NCBI RefSeq assembly: GCF_017348835.2 | Contig: NZ_CP071375.1 | Length of the DNA stretch: 64,000 nt | Source of the DNA: Escherichia coli | Lineage (GTDB): Bacteria > Pseudomonadota > Gammaproteobacteria > Enterobacterales > Enterobacteriaceae | Strand: one strand, 5' to 3' | Shown here: piece by piece, positions 6,069 through 21,381 of the stretch | Layout: every line of letters begins with the position of its first letter | Position numbering within the stretch: position 1 is the first letter of the stretch | Made by a program: the position numbers and the translations under genes | Notes under the pieces: model-generated | Told to the model about the DNA's origin: nothing | Databases searched by the model: none | The model's input: the letters and a program-made list of their open reading frames with translations, nothing else

Positions 6069-7217
6069 TTACCAGGCGGTATGGTAAAGCTCTACAATAT
6101 CCTCAAGCGTTGCTTCACGCGGGTTGCCACCGGTACAAACATCATCCAGTGCCGCCTGAGCCAGTGCCGGAATGTCTTCCTTGCGTACACCAACATCACG
6201 CAAATGTGGCGGAATACCGACATCACGGTTGAGAGCAAACACCGCTTCAACAGCGGCATTACGCGCCTCTTCCAGGCTCATACCTTCCACTTTCACGCCC
6301 ATAACGCGCGCGATATCGCGGTACTTCTCACCGGTAAAGTCAGCGTTATAGCGCATGACATGCGGTAACAGGATGGCGTTCGCAACACCGTGTGGAGTGT
6401 TGTAAAACGCGCCCAGTGGATGCGCCATACCATGCACCAACCCTAACCCAACATTCGAGAAGCCCATACCCGCAACATACTGCCCGAGCGCCATTTCTTC
6501 TCCGGCATCCTTATCACCAGCAACCGATCCTCGCAGCGCCCCAGCAATGATTTCAATCGCTTTAATGTGCAGCGCATCAGTTAGCGCCCACGCGCCACGG
6601 GTAATATACCCCTCAATAGCATGAGTGAGCGCATCGACACCCGTCGCAGCTTTCAGCGCTGGAGGCATACCATCCATCATGTCAGCGTCAATAAACGCCA
6701 CCTGCGGGATATCATGCGGATCAACGCAAACAAACTTGCGCCGTTTTTCTTCGTCAGTGATCACGTAGTTAATGGTCACTTCTGCCGCAGTGCCTGCTGT
6801 GGTGGGGATTGCCAGAATCGGTACACTGGGTTTATTGGTCGGGGAAAGTCCTTCCAGGCTACGCACATCGGCAAACTCCGGGTTGTTGCTGATAATGCCA
6901 ATCGCTTTACAAGTATCCTGTGGAGAACCACCACCAATAGCGATCAGATAATCCGCGCCGCTATTCTGGAATACACCGAGCCCTTCTTTGACGACAGTAA
7001 TTGTTGGGTTGGGTACTACGCCGTCATAAATCGCCCATGCCAGCCCTGCAGCATCCATCTTATCGGTCACTTTCGCCACCACGCCGCATTGCACCAGCGT
7101 TTTATCGGTGACGATCAGCGCCTTCTGATAACCACGGCGTTTCACCTCATCGGTTAAAGCCCCAACAGCACCCCGACCAAACCATGCCGTTTCGTTCAGA
7201 ATCATTCTGTTAGCCAT
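6069..7217 (-). CDS. fucO: L-1,2-propanediol oxidoreductase (lactaldehyde reductase) FucO, 382 aa
   Basis: Iron-containing alcohol dehydrogenase-family ORF; sequence matches FucO; second ATG (7215-7217) gives the 382-aa product; co-transcribed with fucA. Confidence 0.95.
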   Translation of the reverse strand: MANRMILNETAWFGRGAVGALTDEVKRRGYQKALIVTDKTLVQCGVVAKVTDKMDAAGLAWAIYDGVVPNPTITVVKEGLGVFQNSGADYLIAIGGGSPQDTCKAIGIISNNPEFADVRSLEGLSPTNKPSVPILAIPTTAGTAAEVTINYVITDEEKRRKFVCVDPHDIPQVAFIDADMMDGMPPALKAATGVDALTHAIEGYITRGAWALTDALHIKAIEIIAGALRGSVAGDKDAGEEMALGQYVAGMGFSNVGLGLVHGMAHPLGAFYNTPHGVANAILLPHVMRYNADFTGEKYRDIARVMGVKVEGMSLEEARNAAVEAVFALNRDVGIPPHLRDVGVRKEDIPALAQAALDDVCTGGNPREATLEDIVELYHTAW

Positions 7218-7244
7218 CATCCTACTCCTTGTTGCTTTACGAAA

Positions 7245-7892
7245 TTACTCTTCAATCCGTAACCCATAGGTTTTGAATTTCTCCAGCACTACGGCAATTT
7301 CTTCATCGCTCAGCACTGGCACCGGGTCCGTAATCGCCAGGGTCGTCAGGTAAAGTTGCGCCAGCACTTCAACTTCATGCGCCAGCCATAACGCTTTTTC
7401 CAGATTCACCTCACAAGCGATAAGCCCATGATGTTGTAACAAAGTTGCCTTACGATTTTTGAGAGCCAGCGCAACATGTTCAGAAAGTTCGCGTGTTCCA
7501 AAGGTCGCATAAGGCGCGCAAGGAATAGAATTACCGCCAGCCGCCGCAATCATGTAGTGAATAGCGGGGATCGGTCGGTTAAGAATGGAAACTGCTGTGC
7601 AATGAACGGCATGATTGTGAACAACCGCGTTGGCATCCGGTCTGCTTTGATAGGCCGCCATATGGAAACGCCATTCGCTTGAGGGGAGCTTTCCTTCCTC
7701 ATGTTTACCGTTGCCATCAATAAAGACAATATGCGACTCCGTCAGTTTTTCATATGGAATGCCTGTAGGCGTAATCAGCATCCCATCCTGATAACGTACA
7801 CTGACGTTCCCCGCGGTCCCCTGGTTCAGTCCCAGGCGGGTCATTTCCAGGCATGTGTCAATAATCTGACGAGCAAGTTTATTTCGTTCCAT
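7245..7892 (-). CDS. fucA: L-fuculose-1-phosphate aldolase, 215 aa
   Basis: 215-aa class II aldolase ORF; sequence and length match FucA; divergent from fucP. Confidence 0.95.
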   Translation of the reverse strand: MERNKLARQIIDTCLEMTRLGLNQGTAGNVSVRYQDGMLITPTGIPYEKLTESHIVFIDGNGKHEEGKLPSSEWRFHMAAYQSRPDANAVVHNHAVHCTAVSILNRPIPAIHYMIAAAGGNSIPCAPYATFGTRELSEHVALALKNRKATLLQHHGLIACEVNLEKALWLAHEVEVLAQLYLTTLAITDPVPVLSDEEIAVVLEKFKTYGLRIEE

Positions 7893-8077
7893 TAGCTACC
7901 TCTCTCTGATTCAAAACAGGGCAATAATGTTGTTCCTTTCACACTATTGAATTAGCCGTTTAATTACCCAACATCTTCTTCCTGATTAACCAGAAAGAAA
8001 TTCACAAGCTTATATTTTGTGACCTGGTTCAACTAATCACAGTAAATAACTGCAAGTTCTCTTTTTATAACCCCATT

Positions 8078-8180
8078 AAAAATGACCGCTCTTAAAAATA
8101 TTTATCAAAACGGTCATTTTTCTATTCACCTAAGCCAGGAATGACCGTTTTCGGCATAAACAATTAATACGGTCATCTGT
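8078..8180. promoter_or_regulatory. Candidate operator array in the fucAO/fucPIKUR divergent control region: four ATGACCG/CGGTCAT heptamers in alternating orientation
   Basis: Seen in sequence: ATGACCG at 8082-8088 and 8141-8147, CGGTCAT at 8111-8117 and 8170-8176 (about 30-bp periodicity, forming two inverted pairs) inside the 546-bp fucA-fucP intergenic region. Assigning them to FucR (DeoR family) or CRP is inference. Confidence 0.4.
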
Positions 8181-8438
8181 TTTGTGTTTTTTATGATTTA
8201 TTTTCTGAAACGGGCATGAAATTTCGATTATTAAAGTGATGGTAGTCACATAAAGTCACCTTCCAGCTAATAAGTGTGACCGCCGTCATATTACAGAGCG
8301 TTTTTTATTTGAAAATGAATCCATGAGTTCATTTCAGACAGGCAAATATTCACTGATATGAAGCCCGAACTCGCTGGTTTTGCACTTTTGAAAACATAAC
8401 CGATTACGTGCTTAAGCTTCTGAACCTAAGAGGATGCT

Positions 8439-9755
8439 ATGGGAAACACATCAATACAAACGCAGAGTTACCGTGCGGTAGATAAAGATGCAGGGCAAAG
8501 CAGAAGTTACATTATTCCATTCGCGCTGCTGTGCTCACTGTTTTTTCTTTGGGCGGTAGCCAATAACCTTAACGATATTTTATTACCTCAATTCCAGCAG
8601 GCTTTTACGCTGACAAATTTCCAGGCTGGCCTGATCCAATCGGCCTTTTACTTTGGTTATTTCATTATCCCAATCCCTGCTGGGATATTGATGAAAAAAC
8701 TCAGTTATAAAGCAGGGATTATTACCGGATTATTTTTATATGCCTTGGGCGCTGCATTATTCTGGCCCGCTGCAGAAATAATGAACTACACCTTATTTTT
8801 AGTTGGCCTATTTATTATTGCAGCCGGATTAGGTTGTCTGGAAACTGCCGCAAACCCTTTTGTTACGGTATTAGGGCCGGAAAGCAGTGGTCACTTCCGC
8901 TTAAATCTTGCGCAAACATTTAACTCATTTGGCGCAATTATCGCGGTTGTCTTTGGGCAAAGTCTTATTTTGTCTAACGTGCCACATCAATCGCAAGACG
9001 TTCTCGATAAAATGTCTCCAGAGCAATTGAGTGCGTATAAACACAGCCTGGTATTATCGGTACAGACACCTTATATGATCATCGTGGCTATCGTGTTACT
9101 GGTCGCCCTGCTGATCATGCTGACGAAATTCCCGGCATTGCAGAGTGATAACCACAGTGACGCCAAACAAGGATCGTTCTCCGCATCGCTTTCTCGCCTG
9201 GCGCGTATTCGCCACTGGCGCTGGGCAGTATTAGCGCAATTCTGCTATGTCGGCGCACAAACGGCCTGCTGGAGCTATTTGATTCGCTACGCTGTAGAAG
9301 AAATTCCAGGTATGACTGCAGGCTTTGCCGCTAACTATTTAACCGGAACCATGGTGTGCTTCTTTATTGGTCGTTTCACCGGTACCTGGCTCATCAGTCG
9401 CTTCGCACCACACAAAGTCCTGGCCGCCTACGCATTAATCGCTATGGCACTGTGCCTGATCTCAGCCTTCGCTGGCGGTCATGTGGGCTTAATAGCCCTG
9501 ACTTTATGCAGCGCCTTTATGTCGATTCAGTACCCAACAATCTTCTCGCTGGGCATTAAGAATCTCGGCCAGGACACCAAATACGGTTCGTCCTTCATCG
9601 TTATGACCATTATTGGCGGCGGTATTGTCACTCCGGTCATGGGTTTTGTCAGTGACGCGGCGGGCAACATCCCCACTGCTGAACTGATCCCCGTACTCTG
9701 CTTCGCGGTCATCTTTATCTTTGCCCGTTTCCGTTCTCAAACGGCAACTAACTGA
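8439..9755 (+). CDS. fucP: L-fucose:H+ symporter (MFS), 438 aa
   Basis: 438-aa membrane ORF; sequence matches FucP; first gene of fucPIKUR. Confidence 0.95.
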   Translation: MGNTSIQTQSYRAVDKDAGQSRSYIIPFALLCSLFFLWAVANNLNDILLPQFQQAFTLTNFQAGLIQSAFYFGYFIIPIPAGILMKKLSYKAGIITGLFLYALGAALFWPAAEIMNYTLFLVGLFIIAAGLGCLETAANPFVTVLGPESSGHFRLNLAQTFNSFGAIIAVVFGQSLILSNVPHQSQDVLDKMSPEQLSAYKHSLVLSVQTPYMIIVAIVLLVALLIMLTKFPALQSDNHSDAKQGSFSASLSRLARIRHWRWAVLAQFCYVGAQTACWSYLIRYAVEEIPGMTAGFAANYLTGTMVCFFIGRFTGTWLISRFAPHKVLAAYALIAMALCLISAFAGGHVGLIALTLCSAFMSIQYPTIFSLGIKNLGQDTKYGSSFIVMTIIGGGIVTPVMGFVSDAAGNIPTAELIPVLCFAVIFIFARFRSQTATN

Positions 9756-9787
9756 ACATATTTTCCGAATAAAGTGAGGAATCTGTA

Positions 9788-11563
9788 ATGAAAAAAATCA
9801 GCTTACCGAAAATTGGTATCCGCCCGGTTATTGACGGTCGTCGCATGGGTGTTCGTGAGTCGCTTGAAGAACAAACAATGAATATGGCGAAAGCCACGGC
9901 CACACTGCTGACCGAGAAACTGCGCCATGCCTGCGGAGCTGCCGTCGAGTGTGTCATTTCCGATACCTGTATCGCGGGTATGGCTGAAGCCGCTGCTTGC
10001 GAAGAAAAATTCAGCAGTCAGAATGTAGGCCTCACCATTACGGTAACGCCTTGCTGGTGCTATGGCAGTGAAACCATCGACATGGATCCAACCCGCCCGA
10101 AGGCCATTTGGGGCTTTAACGGCACTGAACGCCCCGGCGCTGTTTACCTGGCTGCGGCTCTGGCAGCTCACAGCCAGAAAGGCATCCCGGCATTCTCCAT
10201 TTACGGTCATGACGTTCAGGATGCCGATGACACATCGATTCCTGCTGATGTTGAAGAAAAACTGCTGCGCTTTGCCCGCGCCGGTTTGGCCGTCGCCAGC
10301 ATGAAAGGTAAAAGCTATCTGTCGCTGGGCGGCGTTTCGATGGGTATCGCCGGTTCTATTGTTGATCACAACTTCTTTGAATCCTGGCTGGGAATGAAAG
10401 TCCAGGCGGTGGATATGACCGAACTGCGTCGCCGTATCGATCAGAAGATTTACGACGAAGCCGAACTGGAAATGGCACTGGCCTGGGCTGATAAAAACTT
10501 CCGCTATGGCGAAGATGAAAATAACAAACAGTATCAACGTAATGCCGAGCAAAGCCGCGCAGTTCTGCGCGAAAGTTTACTGATGGCGATGTGTATCCGC
10601 GACATGATGCAAGGCAACAGCAAACTGGCCGATATTGGTCGCGTGGAAGAATCACTTGGCTACAACGCCATCGCTGCGGGCTTCCAGGGGCAACGTCACT
10701 GGACCGATCAATATCCCAATGGTGACACCGCCGAAGCGATCCTCAACAGTTCATTTGACTGGAATGGCGTGCGCGAACCCTTTGTCGTGGCGACCGAAAA
10801 CGACAGTCTTAACGGCGTGGCAATGCTAATGGGTCACCAGCTCACCGGCACCGCTCAGGTATTTGCCGATGTGCGTACCTACTGGTCACCAGAAGCAATT
10901 GAGCGTGTAACGGGGCATAAACTGGATGGACTGGCAGAACACGGCATCATCCATTTGATCAACTCCGGTTCTGCTGCGCTGGACGGTTCCTGTAAACAAC
11001 GCGACAGCGAAGGTAACCCGACGATGAAGCCGCACTGGGAAATCTCTCAGCAAGAGGCTGACGCTTGCCTCGCCGCTACCGAATGGTGCCCGGCGATCCA
11101 CGAATACTTCCGTGGCGGCGGTTACTCTTCCCGCTTCCTTACCGAAGGCGGCGTCCCGTTCACCATGACTCGTGTCAACATCATCAAAGGCCTGGGACCG
11201 GTACTGCAAATCGCGGAAGGCTGGAGCGTGGAATTGCCGAAGGATGTGCATGACATCCTCAACAAACGCACCAACTCAACCTGGCCAACCACCTGGTTTG
11301 CACCGCGCCTCACCGGTAAAGGGCCGTTTACGGATGTGTACTCGGTAATGGCGAACTGGGGCGCTAACCATGGGGTTCTGACCATCGGCCACGTTGGCGC
11401 AGACTTTATCACTCTCGCCTCCATGCTGCGTATCCCGGTATGTATGCACAACGTTGAAGAGACCAAAGTGTATCGTCCTTCTGCCTGGGCTGCGCACGGC
11501 ATGGATATTGAAGGCCAGGATTACCGCGCTTGCCAGAACTACGGTCCGTTGTACAAGCGTTAA
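9788..11563 (+). CDS. fucI: L-fucose isomerase, 591 aa
   Basis: 591-aa ORF; sequence and length match FucI. Confidence 0.95.
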
Positions 11564-11671: not shown

Positions 11672-13090
11672 ATGAAACAAGAAGTTATCCTGGTACTCGA
11701 CTGTGGCGCGACCAATGTCAGGGCCATCGCGGTTAATCGGCAGGGAAAAATTGTTGCCCGCGCCTCAACGCCTAATGCCAGCGATATCGCGATGGAAAAC
11801 AACACCTGGCACCAGTGGTCTTTAGACGCCATTTTGCAACGCTTTGCTGATTGCTGTCGGCAAATCAATAGTGAACTGACTGAATGCCACATCCGCGGTA
11901 TCGCCGTCACCACCTTTGGTGTGGATGGCGCTCTGGTAGATAAGCAAGGCAATCTGCTCTATCCGATCATTAGCTGGAAATGTCCGCGAACAGCAGCGGT
12001 TATGGACAATATTGAACGGTTAATCTCCGCACAGCGGTTGCAGGCTATTTCTGGCGTCGGAGCCTTTAGTTTCAATACGTTATATAAGTTGGTGTGGTTG
12101 AAAGAAAATCATCCACAACTGCTGGAACGCGCGCACGCCTGGCTCTTTATTTCGTCGCTGATTAACCACCGTTTAACCGGCGAATTCACTACTGATATCA
12201 CGATGGCCGGAACCAGCCAGATGCTGGATATCCAGCAACGCGATTTCAGTCCGCAAATTTTACAAGCCACCGGTATTCCACGCCGACTCTTCCCTCGTCT
12301 GGTGGAAGCAGGTGAACAGATTGGTACGCTACAGAACAGCGCCGCAGCAATGCTCGGCTTACCCGTTGGCATACCGGTGATTTCCGCAGGTCACGATACC
12401 CAGTTCGCCCTTTTTGGCGCTGGTGCTGAACAAAATGAACCCGTGCTCTCTTCCGGTACATGGGAAATTTTAATGGTTCGCAGCGCCCAGGTTGATACTT
12501 CGCTGTTAAGTCAGTACGCCGGTTCCACCTGCGAACTGGATAGCCAGGCAGGGTTGTATAACCCAGGTATGCAATGGCTGGCATCCGGCGTGCTGGAATG
12601 GGTGAGAAAACTGTTCTGGACGGCTGAAACACCCTGGCAAATGTTGATTGAAGAGGCTCGTCTGATCGCGCCTGGCGCGGATGGCGTAAAAATGCAGTGT
12701 GATTTATTGTCGTGTCAGAACGCTGGCTGGCAAGGAGTGACGCTTAATACCACGCGGGGGCATTTCTATCGCGCGGCGCTGGAAGGGTTAACCGCGCAAT
12801 TACAGCGCAATCTACAGATGCTGGAAAAAATCGGGCACTTTAAAGCCTCTGAATTATTGTTAGTCGGTGGAGGAAGTCGCAACACATTGTGGAATCAGAT
12901 TAAAGCCAATATGCTTGATATTCCGGTAAAAGTTCTCGACGATGCCGAAACGACCGTCGCAGGAGCTGCGCTGTTCGGTTGGTATGGCGTAGGGGAATTT
13001 AACAGCCCGGAAGAAGCCCGTGCACAGATTCATTATCAGTACCGTTATTTCTACCCGCAAACTGAACCTGAATTTATAGAGGAAGTGTGA
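11672..13090 (+). CDS. fucK: L-fuculokinase, 472 aa (a start at 11642 would give 482 aa)
   Basis: FGGY-family kinase ORF; ATG at 11672 is preceded by CAGGAG (11661-11666) and gives the 472-aa form beginning [17 protein letters not shown]. Confidence 0.9.
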
Positions 13091-13571: not shown

Positions 13572-14303
13572 ATGAAAGCGGCACGCCAGCAAGCGATAGT
13601 CGACCTGCTGCTGAACCATACCAGCCTGACCACGGAAGCTCTCTCTGAACAGCTAAAGGTCAGTAAAGAAACCATTCGTCGCGATCTCAATGAATTACAG
13701 ACGCAGGGTAAAATTCTGCGCAATCATGGGCGCGCTAAATATATCCACCGTCAAAATCAAGACAGTGGCGATCCCTTTCACATCCGGCTGAAAAGCCATT
13801 ATGCGCATAAAGCAGATATCGCGCGCGAGGCGCTCGCGTGGATTGAAGAAGGGATGGTGATAACCTTAGACGCCAGTTCAACTTGCTGGTATCTGGCACG
13901 CCAGTTGCCTGACATCAACATTCAGGTCTTCACCAATAGCCATCCGATTTGCCATGAACTCGGTAAACGCGAACGCATTCAACTGATCAGTTCCGGCGGC
14001 ACACTTGAGCGCAAATATGGCTGTTACGTCAATCCCTCGCTGATTTCCCAACTTAAATCGCTGGAAATCGATCTGTTTATTTTTTCTTGTGAAGGGATCG
14101 ATAGCAGCGGCGCACTGTGGGACTCCAATGCCATCAACGCTGATTACAAATCGATGCTATTAAAACGTGCCGCGCAATCGTTGTTATTGATTGATAAAAG
14201 TAAATTTAATCGTTCAGGGGAAGCCCGCATCGGGCATCTGGATGAGGTAACGCACATTATTTCTGATGAGCGCCAGGTTGCAACTTCTTTGGTAACAGCC
14301 TGA
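13572..14303 (+). CDS. fucR: DeoR-family transcriptional activator of the fuc regulon, 243 aa
   Basis: ORF begins MKAARQQAIVDLLLNHTSLTTEALSEQLKVSKETIRRDL (HTH) from ATG 13572; length and sequence match FucR. Confidence 0.9.
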   Translation: MKAARQQAIVDLLLNHTSLTTEALSEQLKVSKETIRRDLNELQTQGKILRNHGRAKYIHRQNQDSGDPFHIRLKSHYAHKADIAREALAWIEEGMVITLDASSTCWYLARQLPDINIQVFTNSHPICHELGKRERIQLISSGGTLERKYGCYVNPSLISQLKSLEIDLFIFSCEGIDSSGALWDSNAINADYKSMLLKRAAQSLLLIDKSKFNRSGEARIGHLDEVTHIISDERQVATSLVTA

Positions 14304-20283: not shown

Positions 20284-21381
20284 TCAGCCACTAAAGACGT
20301 TACCTGCGCCCGGAGCCGTTTTCAGCACCCAAACCCGTCCATAGTGGTTGTACCAACCTGCGCGGTGTCCGGCTTCCGGCCCGATCCCTTGATAGATATC
20401 GAAGTGTTGGCCTTTGATTGCGCCACCGACATCCAGCGCCACCATCAGACGCAATTCGTACTGACCATTAAATTTGCCGTTATTATCCAGCAGCGGCACT
20501 TCTGCCAGCAAGGTTGTACCTGGCGGAATAATGGAACGATCAGAGGCAACAGAAGCACGGCCAACCAGCGGCACCGCACTTGCCCCTTTCACCGGTGCAA
20601 AAGATTGAGGTTTAAAGAAGACGAAAGACGGGTTCTGTTCCAGCAGCTCGCGAACCTCGGCTTCACTGTGTGTTTCGCCCCAGTGACGAATCGCCTGCAT
20701 CGACATGTCTTCTTTTTTCACTTCGCCACGGTCGATCAGCACCTTACCAATGCTGCGATAGGCATGACCGTTTTTCCCTGCATAGCTGAAAAAGTTAAGC
20801 GGACTGCCATCACCAAAGTCGATATACCCACTACCCTGCACATCCATAATGAAGTTATCCATCAGAGAGTTGCTGTAAGCGAGGATGTATTTATCGCCCA
20901 ATGCCCCTGCGTAGATCTCCGCACGAGACGGCAGACGACCACGTTTTGGCGGCATACGGTAAATAGGATACTGGAACTCGCCCTGGCGGGTATGGCGCGC
21001 CTGAATTACCGGCGTGTAATAGCCTGTAAACTGCACGTTACCATAGTTGTCGGCACCTTCCATCTGCCAGGCATCAATGCCGAACTGGCGCATATTGCGG
21101 GTATCACCGCCTGCGCGCAGCCACTCTTGCACCGCGTTATAAACATTACTCTGGTTGCCATACAGACGCGGTGACGAATTACGGATATGGTTAATTTGCT
21201 CGGCAAAATCACCGGCGTTAATCGGCGCGCCAACGGCATCTGGCTGGTTCACCAGAGAGAAAGGCTGGGTAAATTTCCCGTCTTTATATTGCTGTCCGCG
21301 ATCGGTTGGTTTGGAAGAGCAGGCGGCAAGCATTGCCACAACCGTGCCCATAAGAAGGTACTTTACCCAACGTCCTTTCAT
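20284..21381 (-). CDS. mltA: Membrane-bound lytic murein transglycosylase A (lipoprotein), 365 aa
   Basis: Start at ATG 21379-21381 gives MKGRWVKYLLMGTVVAMLAACSSK (lipoprotein signal) and the 365-aa MltA; the track's longer 398-aa form is an upstream in-frame extension. Confidence 0.9.
   Translation of the reverse strand: MKGRWVKYLLMGTVVAMLAACSSKPTDRGQQYKDGKFTQPFSLVNQPDAVGAPINAGDFAEQINHIRNSSPRLYGNQSNVYNAVQEWLRAGGDTRNMRQFGIDAWQMEGADNYGNVQFTGYYTPVIQARHTRQGEFQYPIYRMPPKRGRLPSRAEIYAGALGDKYILAYSNSLMDNFIMDVQGSGYIDFGDGSPLNFFSYAGKNGHAYRSIGKVLIDRGEVKKEDMSMQAIRHWGETHSEAEVRELLEQNPSFVFFKPQSFAPVKGASAVPLVGRASVASDRSIIPPGTTLLAEVPLLDNNGKFNGQYELRLMVALDVGGAIKGQHFDIYQGIGPEAGHRAGWYNHYGRVWVLKTAPGAGNVFSG

What the first reader, a model, noticed from the sequence alone, without database searches (positions are those of the whole stretch)
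8078..8180. Four alternating ATGACCG / CGGTCAT heptamers with about 30-bp periodicity in the fuc divergent control region
Between fucA (minus) and fucP (plus) the heptamer ATGACCG and its reverse complement alternate at 8082, 8111, 8141 and 8170, forming two large inverted-repeat units (AAAAATGACCG…CGGTCATTTTT and GGAATGACCG…ACGGTCATCTG). This regular architecture looks like an operator array for a multimeric regulator, most plausibly FucR (a DeoR-family activator encoded at the end of the operon), and sits between the divergent fucAO and fucPIKUR promoters. I cannot confirm from memory that these are the mapped FucR sites.
Basis: seen in the sequence. Interest (0 to 1): 0.4.

Follow-up and report, generated by a model that had tools for sequence, protein, structure and literature searches.

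The report
Known FucR operator boxes, fuc divergon
The four repeated heptamers are real and are the cores of binding sites for FucR, the fucose-operon activator of E. coli; two of them have already been proven by published mutagenesis, so the finding is correct but mostly already known.

Summary
ATGACCG/CGGTCAT sits at 8082, 8111, 8141 and 8170 with alternating orientation and 29/30/29-bp spacing. ATGACCG-N22-CGGTCAT occurs twice here and in none of 100 shuffles. The window is the E. coli fucAO/fucPIKUR divergent control region.

Boxes 8082 and 8141 are OFucR3 and OFucR2 of Zhang et al. 2024. Mutating them cut fucose induction of PfucAO more than 50-fold and about 30%. The heptamer matches the FucR DAP-seq consensus quoted there.

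Comparing 46 enterobacterial fucA-fucP regions adds detail:
- The real core is CGG[T/G]CA, 97.7% conserved against 55% for neighbouring bases.
- There is a fifth box at 8211-8217 (CGGGCAT).
- The conserved unit is an inverted pair, ATGNCCG-N22-CGGNCAT.
- Pair spacing, the 41-bp step to box five and distances to the CRP sites hold within 1 bp, whereas the gap between boxes 2 and 3 varies from 19 to 52 bp. The uniform 30-bp period is therefore an E. coli coincidence.
- A degenerate sixth half-site (8182-8188) is an exact ATGACCG in most Photorhabdus species examined.

Verdict: already known, low interest, with a modest architectural refinement.

The parts
8082..8088 (-). It is the core of published OFucR3, whose 15-mer is 8081-8095. 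It forms the left half of dyad A/B.
   Evidence: Exact match to the mutated OFucR3 sequence. Its mutation lowered induced PfucAO more than 50-fold. PWM score 15.9. Conserved across genera.
8111..8117 (+). Box B (heptamer 2). It forms the right half of dyad A/B and is the best consensus match in the region (AAAACGGTCATTT).
   Evidence: PWM score 20.5 of a maximum 21.1. It lies 29 or 30 bp from box A in 32 of 32 loci. It has not been mutated individually. Truncation V6, which removes B and C, costs only about 30% of PfucAO activity.
8141..8147 (-). Box C (heptamer 3). It is the core of published OFucR2, whose 15-mer is 8140-8154. It forms the left half of dyad C/D.
   Evidence: Exact match to OFucR2. 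Its mutation lowered induced PfucAO by about 30%. PWM score 19.3.
8170..8176 (+). Box D (heptamer 4). It forms the right half of dyad C/D.
   Evidence: PWM score 15.4. It lies 29 bp from box C in 31 of 32 loci. It lies outside construct V5 (-270 = 8162), which keeps full PfucAO activity, so it is dispensable for PfucAO.
8211..8217 (+).
   Evidence: It reads AAACGG[G/T]CAT in 22 of 24 aligned genomes, and is CGGTCAT in most genera other than Escherichia. It lies 41 or 42 bp from box D and 28.5 bp from the centre of OCrp1 in 32 of 32 loci.
8182..8188 (-). E', a candidate degenerate sixth half-site (TTGTGTT here, CTGTGGG in most genera), exactly 29 bp left of box E.
   Evidence: The TGTG and the following T-run are conserved. 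In 5 of the 7 Photorhabdus loci examined this position holds an exact ATGACCG, N22 upstream of box E. Binding in E. coli is unknown.
8078..8121 (.). Dyad operator A/B, a 44-bp palindrome with its axis at 8099/8100. It belongs to the fucAO-side module.
   Evidence: Arms are 82% complementary. Paired-operator score 36.5, against 15.3 for the best hit outside the array. The dyad centre is 74 bp from the OCrp2 centre.
8141..8176 (.). Dyad operator C/D, with its axis at 8158/8159. It belongs to the fucP-side module.
   Evidence: Paired-operator score 34.7. Its distances to box E and to OCrp1/OCrp0 are fixed in 32 loci.
8015..8036 (.). CRP site OCrp2, essential for PfucAO.
   Evidence: It matches the published sequence ttagtTGAaccaggTCACAaaa read as its reverse complement. 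Its centre at 8025.5 lies 58.5 or 59.5 bp from box A in 31 of 32 loci.
8232..8253 (.). CRP site OCrp1, which serves PfucPIK.
   Evidence: AGTGA-N6-TCACA centred at 8242.5. The literature assigns it to fucPIK.
8272..8293 (.). CRP site OCrp0, which serves PfucPIK.
   Evidence: It matches the published sequence taaTaTGAcggcggTCACActt read as its reverse complement. Centre at 8282.5.
7955..7955 (-). PfucAO transcription start, at -63 from the fucA ATG.
   Evidence: 5'RACE result in PMC11011485. The base at this position agrees with the window sequence.
13572..14303 (+). fucR, the DeoR-family activator presumed to bind the boxes.
   Evidence: Annotated as the L-fucose operon activator in K-12. HTH_DeoR E = 7e-23 and DeoRC E = 2e-45.

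Best explanation
The four heptamers are the cores of FucR recognition boxes, with consensus AAA(A/T)CGG(T/G)CAT(T). They belong to an array of five good boxes and one degenerate box between the divergent, CRP-dependent promoters PfucAO and PfucPIKUR.

Shown by others: boxes A and C are required for fucose induction of PfucAO, and that induction also needs CRP bound at OCrp2.

Inferred here:
- The boxes form three dyad operators of the type ATGNCCG-N22-CGGNCAT: A/B, C/D and E'/E. Each is probably read by two HTH domains of a FucR dimer or higher oligomer once fuculose-1-phosphate is bound.
- The dyads fall into two rigid modules joined by a spacer of free length between B and C. One module is OCrp2-A/B, serving fucAO. 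The other is C/D-E'/E-OCrp1-OCrp0, serving fucPIKUR.
- Within each module the dyad centres lie about an integral number of helical turns from the CRP sites (74, 84, 43, 41 and 40 bp). FucR and CRP would then sit on one face of the DNA, and FucR would help CRP and RNA polymerase occupy the promoter.
- One good half-site with a poor partner appears to be enough for partial function.
For: Identity with published sites:
- Boxes A and C are identical to the mutated sites OFucR3 and OFucR2. The effects were more than 50-fold and about 30%.
- Truncation to -166, which leaves no box, abolishes induction.
- The FucR DAP-seq consensus has CGG and CA as its most conserved bases. The same pattern emerges from 118 aligned boxes.

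Conservation and specificity:
- The CGG.CA positions are 97.7% identical across 21 sequences from about 12 genera, against 55% for neighbouring positions.
- There are 189 PWM hits in 46 fucP-fucA regions. In 34 control upstream regions there are 16, and 13 of those lie in Edwardsiella and Serratia DD3 loci that again show (-)29(+) pairs.
- Only two paired operators occur in the 64 kb, scoring 36.5 and 34.7 against 15.3 for the next best.

Spacing over 32 loci:
- A-B is 29 or 30 bp and C-D is 29 bp in 31 of 32.
- D-E is 41 or 42 bp and E to OCrp1 is 28.5 bp in 32 of 32.
- A to OCrp2 is 58.5 or 59.5 bp.
- B-C varies from 24 to 48 bp, and from 19 to 52 bp when the variant loci are included.
- Boxes below threshold in the variant loci still sit at the expected distances.

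Other support:
- In most Photorhabdus species examined, E' is an exact ATGACCG placed N22 before box E.
- FucR has HTH_DeoR and DeoRC domains.
Against: - I have no direct binding data for any box. For B, D, E and E' there is no functional test either.
- The Zhang 2024 truncation V6 (-206) leaves only box A and still keeps about 70% of induced PfucAO activity. The loss equals that from the point mutation in box C alone, so box B is not needed for PfucAO in that lac-locus reporter. This argues against obligatory pairwise binding.
- V5 lacks D and E and keeps full PfucAO activity.
- Box C, which I place in the fucP module, does contribute about 30% to PfucAO.
- The oligomeric state of FucR is unknown to me.
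- The fucPIK start site was not available. The helical-phase argument assumes 10.5 bp per turn.
Confidence: 0.88

Rival explanations
1. The boxes are FucR sites but act as independent single 15-mer sites, as they are treated in the published work. The inverted pairing and fixed spacings then have no mechanistic meaning, and boxes facing fucA serve PfucAO while boxes facing fucP serve PfucPIK.
For: Box A alone supports about 70% of PfucAO induction, and removing B adds nothing beyond the loss of C. The two validated PfucAO sites, A and C, both read toward fucA. The 2025 paper assigns two putative sites to PfucPIKR and two to PfucAO.
Against: The A-B and C-D distances are fixed to within 1 bp in 32 of 32 loci, although the spacer sequence diverges and the adjacent B-C spacer changes length freely. 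The same (-)29(+) pair recurs in different contexts in Edwardsiella, Serratia DD3 and Photorhabdus E'/E. Independent sites would not need fixed mutual distances.
Confidence: 0.25
2. The heptamer repeats are chance or compositional repeats in an AT-rich intergenic region and have no function.
For: ATGACCG is somewhat frequent elsewhere in the window. Thirteen copies lie outside the array, against 8.1 expected for the whole window. Single high-scoring boxes occur inside ORFs at 20764, 41814 and 62225.
Against: None of 100 shuffles gives even one paired pattern. The core is 97.7% conserved across genera. Published mutagenesis shows function.
Confidence: 0.01
3. The inverted repeats work through nucleic-acid structure, as a cruciform, an RNA hairpin or a small RNA, rather than as protein-binding sites.
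For: The A/B unit is a 44-bp palindrome and several arms pair perfectly. There is a weak Rfam hit to tsr25 at 26.5 bits.
Against: The variable position inside paired boxes does not covary: 13 same against 11 different for A/B, and 14 against 10 for C/D. The spacers diverge. The region lies upstream of the PfucAO start at 7955 and of the CRP sites of PfucPIK, so it is not normally transcribed. The Rfam hit is far below its gathering score of 63 and belongs to a Staphylococcus family. No terminator-like hairpin was found.
Confidence: 0.02
4. The boxes are bound mainly by a regulator other than FucR, such as a nucleoid protein or SrsR, and the mutagenesis effects are indirect.
For: No footprint or EMSA with purified FucR on these boxes is available in what I could read. 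The locus is described as transcriptionally repressed.
Against: The mutations affect activity only with fucose, when FucR is active, and not with glycerol. The motif came from an in-vitro FucR DNA-binding assay. SrsR had no effect on fucAO, and its reported site lies in the fucP 5'UTR. The boxes do not fit the CRP consensus, and the CRP sites lie elsewhere.
Confidence: 0.04

Closest known systems
Published E. coli FucR operators OFucR2 and OFucR3 (Zhang et al., Int J Mol Sci 2024, PMC11011485), the FucR DAP-seq motif (Baumgart et al., Nat Methods 2021, quoted there), and 'OR0-OR3' in Zhang et al., NAR 2025 (PMC11894529)
   Same: The sequences are the same. Boxes C and A are OFucR2 and OFucR3. 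All five boxes fit the quoted consensus ...AAAACGG(T/G)CAT(T).
   Different: The papers treat the sites as separate 15-mers and never mention dyads, pairing or oligomers; the terms 'palindrom', 'dimer' and 'tetramer' are absent. They count four sites, two of them only putative and not given as sequence in the text. I count five conserved boxes plus a degenerate sixth. Box B lies between OFucR2 and OFucR3 and may not be among the four. My spacing analysis places box C with the fucP-side module.
Operator arrays of other DeoR-family regulators: DeoR at deoO1/O2/OE, GlpR tandem operators, UlaR and AgaR (from my own knowledge, not checked here)
   Same: The regulator has an HTH_DeoR N-terminal domain and a sugar-phosphate-sensing DeoRC domain. 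There are several operators per control region. It cooperates with CRP at catabolic promoters (for DeoR and GlpR).
   Different: FucR activates, whereas most family members repress. Its sites lie about 130-260 bp upstream of the PfucAO start rather than over the -10/-35 region. The half-sites are 29 bp apart, centre to centre, rather than forming a compact palindrome of about 16 bp.
Co-dependent CRP + specific-activator nucleoprotein complexes at divergent sugar promoters, such as MalT/CRP at malEp-malKp, and AraC/CRP or MelR/CRP promoters (from my own knowledge)
   Same: Several sites for a sugar-specific activator are interleaved or phased with CRP sites in a divergent intergenic region, and activation needs both proteins.
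   Different: The activator family is different. The order is also different: the FucR sites all lie between the two sets of CRP sites, distal to both promoters.

Membership tests
FucR binding site (operator of the E. coli fuc regulon) | Matches the FucR consensus, with CGG and CA invariant and an A-rich 5' flank | tested here: met
   All four heptamers and box E fit the consensus. PWM scores are 12.8 to 20.5 of a maximum 21.1.
FucR binding site (operator of the E. coli fuc regulon) | Lies in the control region of FucR-dependent promoters | tested here: met
   The boxes lie between fucA (-) and fucP (+), upstream of the PfucAO start at 7955 and on the fucA side of OCrp1 and OCrp0.
FucR binding site (operator of the E. 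coli fuc regulon) | Mutation removes FucR- and fucose-dependent activation | not testable with these tools
   The literature covers boxes A and C only, with effects of more than 50-fold and about 30% on PfucAO. B, D and E have not been mutated individually, and truncations show they are dispensable for PfucAO. No PfucPIK data were found.
FucR binding site (operator of the E. coli fuc regulon) | Directly bound by purified FucR with fuculose-1-phosphate (footprint or EMSA) | not testable with these tools
   I have only second-hand knowledge that DAP-seq proposed site C. The Baumgart paper is not held.
FucR binding site (operator of the E. coli fuc regulon) | Conserved in other genomes with a fucA-fucP divergon | tested here: met
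   Thirty-two of 46 loci show the full -+-++ pattern. Most of the other 14 keep boxes below threshold at the same distances. The core is 97.7% identical.
DeoR-family transcription factor (the presumed ligand, FucR) | An N-terminal HTH_DeoR domain plus a C-terminal DeoRC sensor domain | tested here: met
   PF08220 E = 6.8e-23 and PF00455 E = 1.9e-45.
Structured RNA or DNA hairpin element | Covariation that preserves pairing, or a match to a known RNA family | tested here: not met
   The variable position does not covary within pairs. No Rfam match approaches its gathering score.
CRP binding site | TGTGA-N6-TCACA dyad | tested here: not met
   CRP-like dyads lie at 8025.5, 8242.5 and 8282.5, not at the boxes.
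Repetitive extragenic or mobile-element repeat | Many copies per genome | tested here: not met
   The intergenic region occurs at a median of one place per genome in 5,024 E. coli genomes.

The most novel reading that the evidence does not exclude
FucR may not read isolated 15-mers. It may instead read three long-spaced dyad operators (ATGNCCG-N22-CGGNCAT, half-sites 29 bp apart), arranged as two rigid, helically phased FucR-CRP modules, one per promoter, joined by a hinge of free length. On this reading box B and box E/E' are unrecognised parts of the system, and box C (published as a fucAO site) belongs primarily to the fucPIKUR module. This would be an unusual operator geometry for a DeoR-family protein and a defined model for how this atypical activator cooperates with CRP.
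Probability: 0.5. Interest if true: 0.35.

Novelty: already known. Interest (0 to 1): 0.22.

Why it matters
FucR is the odd member of the DeoR family, an activator among mostly repressors, and how it activates is still open. The published model says only that it 'facilitates CRP binding'.

The comparative map gives that model concrete geometry to test:
- which boxes pair with each other;
- which distances are constrained;
- which box (B) and which partner site (E') have not been examined;
- that PfucPIKUR probably has its own rigid FucR-CRP module.

Beyond that, this is ordinary, well-studied operon control, and the core claim is already in the literature.

Tried and rejected
- Extra coding-region copies. 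ATGACCG occurs at 9476, 9634, 9706, 10204 and 10415 in fucP and fucI, which looked like a possible internal site cluster. They lack the A/T flanks (PWM below 9.5). Site 9476 is explained by Gly-His codons (xxC GGN CAY), and 9634 and 9706 are not conserved outside Escherichia. I rejected them as coding coincidence. A first crude offset-based test was confounded by indels and was redone with an alignment.
- Single strong boxes at 12832, 20764, 41814 and 62225. They are unpaired. The two I checked (20764 and 41814) lie inside long ORFs. I treat them as chance.
- A search for fucR homologues inside the fetched loci, to test co-occurrence of regulator and operator. It found none because the flanks are too short, so it is uninformative.
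- A PDB sequence search with FucR gave no hit at 1e-5, so I have no structural handle on the HTH spacing.
- Baumgart 2021 and Podolny 1999 are not held. The supplements of the NAR 2025 paper contain no FucR site sequences. I therefore could not establish what 'OR0' and 'OR1' are, or the mapped fucPIK start.
- The consensus promoter and terminator scan found nothing in the intergenic region. That is expected for weak, activator-dependent promoters.
- Literature searches for DeoR-family operator geometry gave nothing usable.
- The GTGACCGCCGTCAT sequence at 8276-8289 briefly looked like another pair of boxes. It is the published CRP site OCrp0.

Full report
**What is there.** The window carries the E. 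coli fucose locus. fucO is at 6069-7220 (-), fucA at 7245-7892 (-) and fucP at 8439-9755 (+), followed by fucI, fucK, fucU and fucR. The 546-bp fucA-fucP intergenic region occurs once per genome in 5,024 of 5,426 complete E. coli genomes. It differs from K-12 at nine positions and has no indels.

The heptamer ATGACCG is at 8082 and 8141 on the + strand. Its complement CGGTCAT is at 8111 and 8170. The composite ATGACCG-N22-CGGTCAT occurs twice, only here, and in none of 100 dinucleotide-preserving shuffles. The first pair extends to a 44-bp palindrome at 8078-8121.

**What is already published.** Zhang et al. 2024 (PMC11011485) took a FucR consensus from the DAP-seq study of Baumgart et al. 2021. 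In it CGG and CA are the most conserved bases. They named two sites, OFucR2 (CCGAAAACGGTCATT) and OFucR3 (TTAAGAGCGGTCATT).
- Mutating OFucR3 lowered fucose-induced PfucAO activity more than 50-fold.
- Mutating OFucR2 lowered it by about 30%.
- Neither mutation mattered in glycerol, when FucR is inactive.
- The PfucAO start lies at -63 from the fucA ATG, which is window 7955. The essential CRP site OCrp2 is at 8015-8036.

A 2025 paper from the same group (PMC11894529) speaks of 'all four known' FucR sites. It calls OR0 and OR1 'putative' operators for PfucPIKR and assigns OR2 and OR3 to PfucAO. The text gives no sequences for OR0 and OR1, and the supplements hold none. FucR has HTH_DeoR and DeoRC domains.

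**Independent evidence from comparative genomics.** A scan of one genome per species with FucA returned 80 loci. Forty-six of them have a divergent E. coli-type fucP.
- In an alignment of 24 intergenic regions from about 12 genera, each of the four heptamers is conserved as CGG[T/G]CA with an A-rich 5' flank.
- The five constrained core positions are 97.7% identical across 21 non-redundant sequences. The rest of 8078-8225 is 55% identical, and the CRP cores are 91% identical.
- The fourth base of the heptamer is free. It is T or G about equally, and sometimes A. This matches the published consensus. Four identical heptamers in this strain and in K-12 is therefore partly luck, and other Escherichia lineages have ATGCCCG at box C.
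It is CGGGCAT at 8211-8217, which reads CGGTCAT in most other genera and is among the best conserved of all.

**Specificity.** A PWM built from the 118 aligned boxes gives 189 hits at score 12 or more in the 46 fucP-fucA regions. The upstream regions of 34 fucA homologues without an E. coli-type fucP give 16 hits. Thirteen of those 16 lie in three Edwardsiella loci and one Serratia locus, which again show box pairs 29 bp apart. In the 64-kb window only two paired operators exist. They score 36.5 and 34.7, against 15.3 for the next best.

**Architecture.** I call the boxes A (8082, -), B (8111, +), C (8141, -), D (8170, +) and E (8211, +). Distances over the 32 loci with the full -+-++ pattern are as follows.

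| Interval | Distance (bp) | Loci |
|---|---|---|
| A to B | 29 / 30 | 24 / 8 |
| C to D | 29 / 30 | 31 / 1 |
| D to E | 41 / 42 | 26 / 6 |
| E centre to OCrp1 centre | 28.5 | 32 |
| OCrp1 to OCrp0 | 40 / 39 | 24 / 8 |
| A centre to OCrp2 centre | 58.5 / 59.5 | 22 / 9 |
| B to C | 24 to 48 | variable |

- B to C ranges from 19 to 52 bp once the variant loci are included.
- The distances from the array to the two start codons also vary by tens of bp, so indels do accumulate where length is unconstrained.
- In most of the 14 loci without the full pattern, the 'missing' boxes are present below threshold at the expected distances.

The conserved unit is therefore the inverted pair ATGNCCG-N22-CGGNCAT, not a 30-bp periodic array. 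The even 29/30/29 spacing in E. coli is a coincidence of its B-C spacer length.

The array splits into two rigid modules joined by a hinge between B and C. One is OCrp2-A/B on the fucAO side. The other is C/D-E-OCrp1-OCrp0 on the fucP side.

The dyad centres are as follows.
- A/B is at 8099.5.
- C/D is at 8158.5.
- E'/E is at 8199.5.

They lie 74 bp from OCrp2, 84 bp from OCrp1 and 43 bp from OCrp1 respectively. C/D to E'/E is 41 bp and OCrp1 to OCrp0 is 40 bp. All are close to whole numbers of helical turns. This last point is my inference and assumes 10.5 bp per turn.

**A sixth, degenerate half-site.** Exactly 29 bp left of box E, where its inverted partner would lie, there is a conserved (C/T)TGTGG(G/T)TTTT. 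In E. coli it reads TTGTGTTTTTT at 8182-8192. Read on the other strand, it keeps every conserved box position except that GG has become CC. In 5 of the 7 Photorhabdus loci examined this position holds an exact ATGACCG, followed by N22 and box E. In those genomes it is box A that has decayed, to TATTCCG. The ancestral layout was probably three full dyads, and different lineages tolerate one weak half.

**How it most likely works.**
- Shown by others: FucR with its effector, acting through boxes A and C, is needed to induce PfucAO, and this depends on CRP at OCrp2.
- Inferred: each dyad is read by two HTH domains of a FucR dimer or oligomer. The complexes sit in phase with CRP and help CRP and RNA polymerase occupy each promoter. 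A/B serves fucAO, and C/D with E serves fucPIKUR.

**The main evidence against obligatory pairing.** The published truncations give the following.

| Construct | Upstream end | Boxes left | Induced PfucAO activity |
|---|---|---|---|
| V5 | -270 = 8162 | A, B, C | full |
| V6 | -206 = 8098 | A only | about 70% |
| V7 | -166 = 8058 | none | most activity lost |

- The V6 loss equals that from the point mutation in box C alone.
- Box B is the best consensus match in the region, yet it is not required for PfucAO in that lac-locus reporter under full induction.
- This fits the natural examples of one strong and one weak half-site. It leaves the role of box B open.

**Rivals.**
- Chance is excluded.
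- A nucleic-acid structure is unlikely. The free position does not covary within pairs, the spacers diverge, and no Rfam family matches near threshold. The region also lies upstream of both promoters.
- A different binding protein is unlikely. The mutational effects depend on fucose, and the motif came from an in-vitro FucR assay.
- The 'independent single sites' reading remains a serious alternative for the mechanism, though not for the identity of the sites.

**Limits.** I could not see the figures that define OR0 and OR1. I could not read Baumgart 2021 or Podolny 1999. I could not scan a whole genome with the paired model. The fucPIK start site is inferred only. If OCrp0 is a class II site at -41.5, the start is near 8324.

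**Verdict.** The thing itself is already known, and the comparative architecture is a modest, testable refinement.

Noticed in passing
window 8263-8266: The IS5 target CTAG of K-12 lies at -374 to -371 from the fucA ATG. IS5 insertion there gives propanediol-positive mutants. In this strain the site reads CCAG. The three other Escherichia lineages examined also lack CTAG.
   Followed up: partly
window 9476-10421 (fucP 3' end and fucI 5' part): Five further exact ATGACCG/CGGTCAT heptamers lie within about 1 kb of coding sequence. The window total is 17 against about 8 expected. They lack the A/T flanks. Site 9476 coincides with Gly-His codons, and sites 9634 and 9706 are not conserved outside Escherichia. 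They look like coding coincidence.
   Followed up: yes
window 8182-8192: A conserved (C/T)TGTGG(G/T)TTTT element lies between boxes D and E, exactly at the partner position of box E. It is box-like except that GG has become CC. In most Photorhabdus loci examined it is a true ATGACCG. Its function in E. coli is unknown.
   Followed up: partly
window 7960-8007: The published PfucAO -35 element 'TTGtgA' is stated to lie at -96 to -91 from the fucA ATG. In the sequence TTGTGA lies at -115 to -110 (8002-8007), and -96 to -91 reads TAATCA. With the stated -10 at 7960-7965, a -35 at 8002-8007 would give a 36-bp spacer. The published core-promoter assignment is therefore internally inconsistent.
   Followed up: no
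window 8300-8335: A nearly invariant block lies downstream of OCrp0. It includes a GAAAAT -10-like hexamer and the small palindrome ATGAGTTCAT, around the inferred fucPIK start. It is more conserved than a promoter alone would need.
   Followed up: no
window 8122-8140: Five of the nine differences between this strain and K-12 in the 546-bp intergenic region lie between boxes (four in the B-C hinge at 8128-8137 and one at 8157 in the C-D spacer), and a sixth (8180) lies just past box D. None touches a box.
   Followed up: partly
L042, L048, L054 (Edwardsiella) and L059 (Serratia sp. DD3), upstream of the fucA homologue: The same box pairs, (-) then (+) 28-29 bp apart, occur in fuc loci with a different gene arrangement. 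The neighbouring permease is only about 40% identical to FucP, or is absent. This suggests the FucR dyad operator is older than the E. coli-type divergon.
   Followed up: partly
window 12832, 20764, 41814, 62225: These are isolated strong matches to the FucR box (PWM 15.5 to 18.4). They have no partner at 29 bp. The two checked (20764 and 41814) lie inside long ORFs. They are probably chance.
   Followed up: partly
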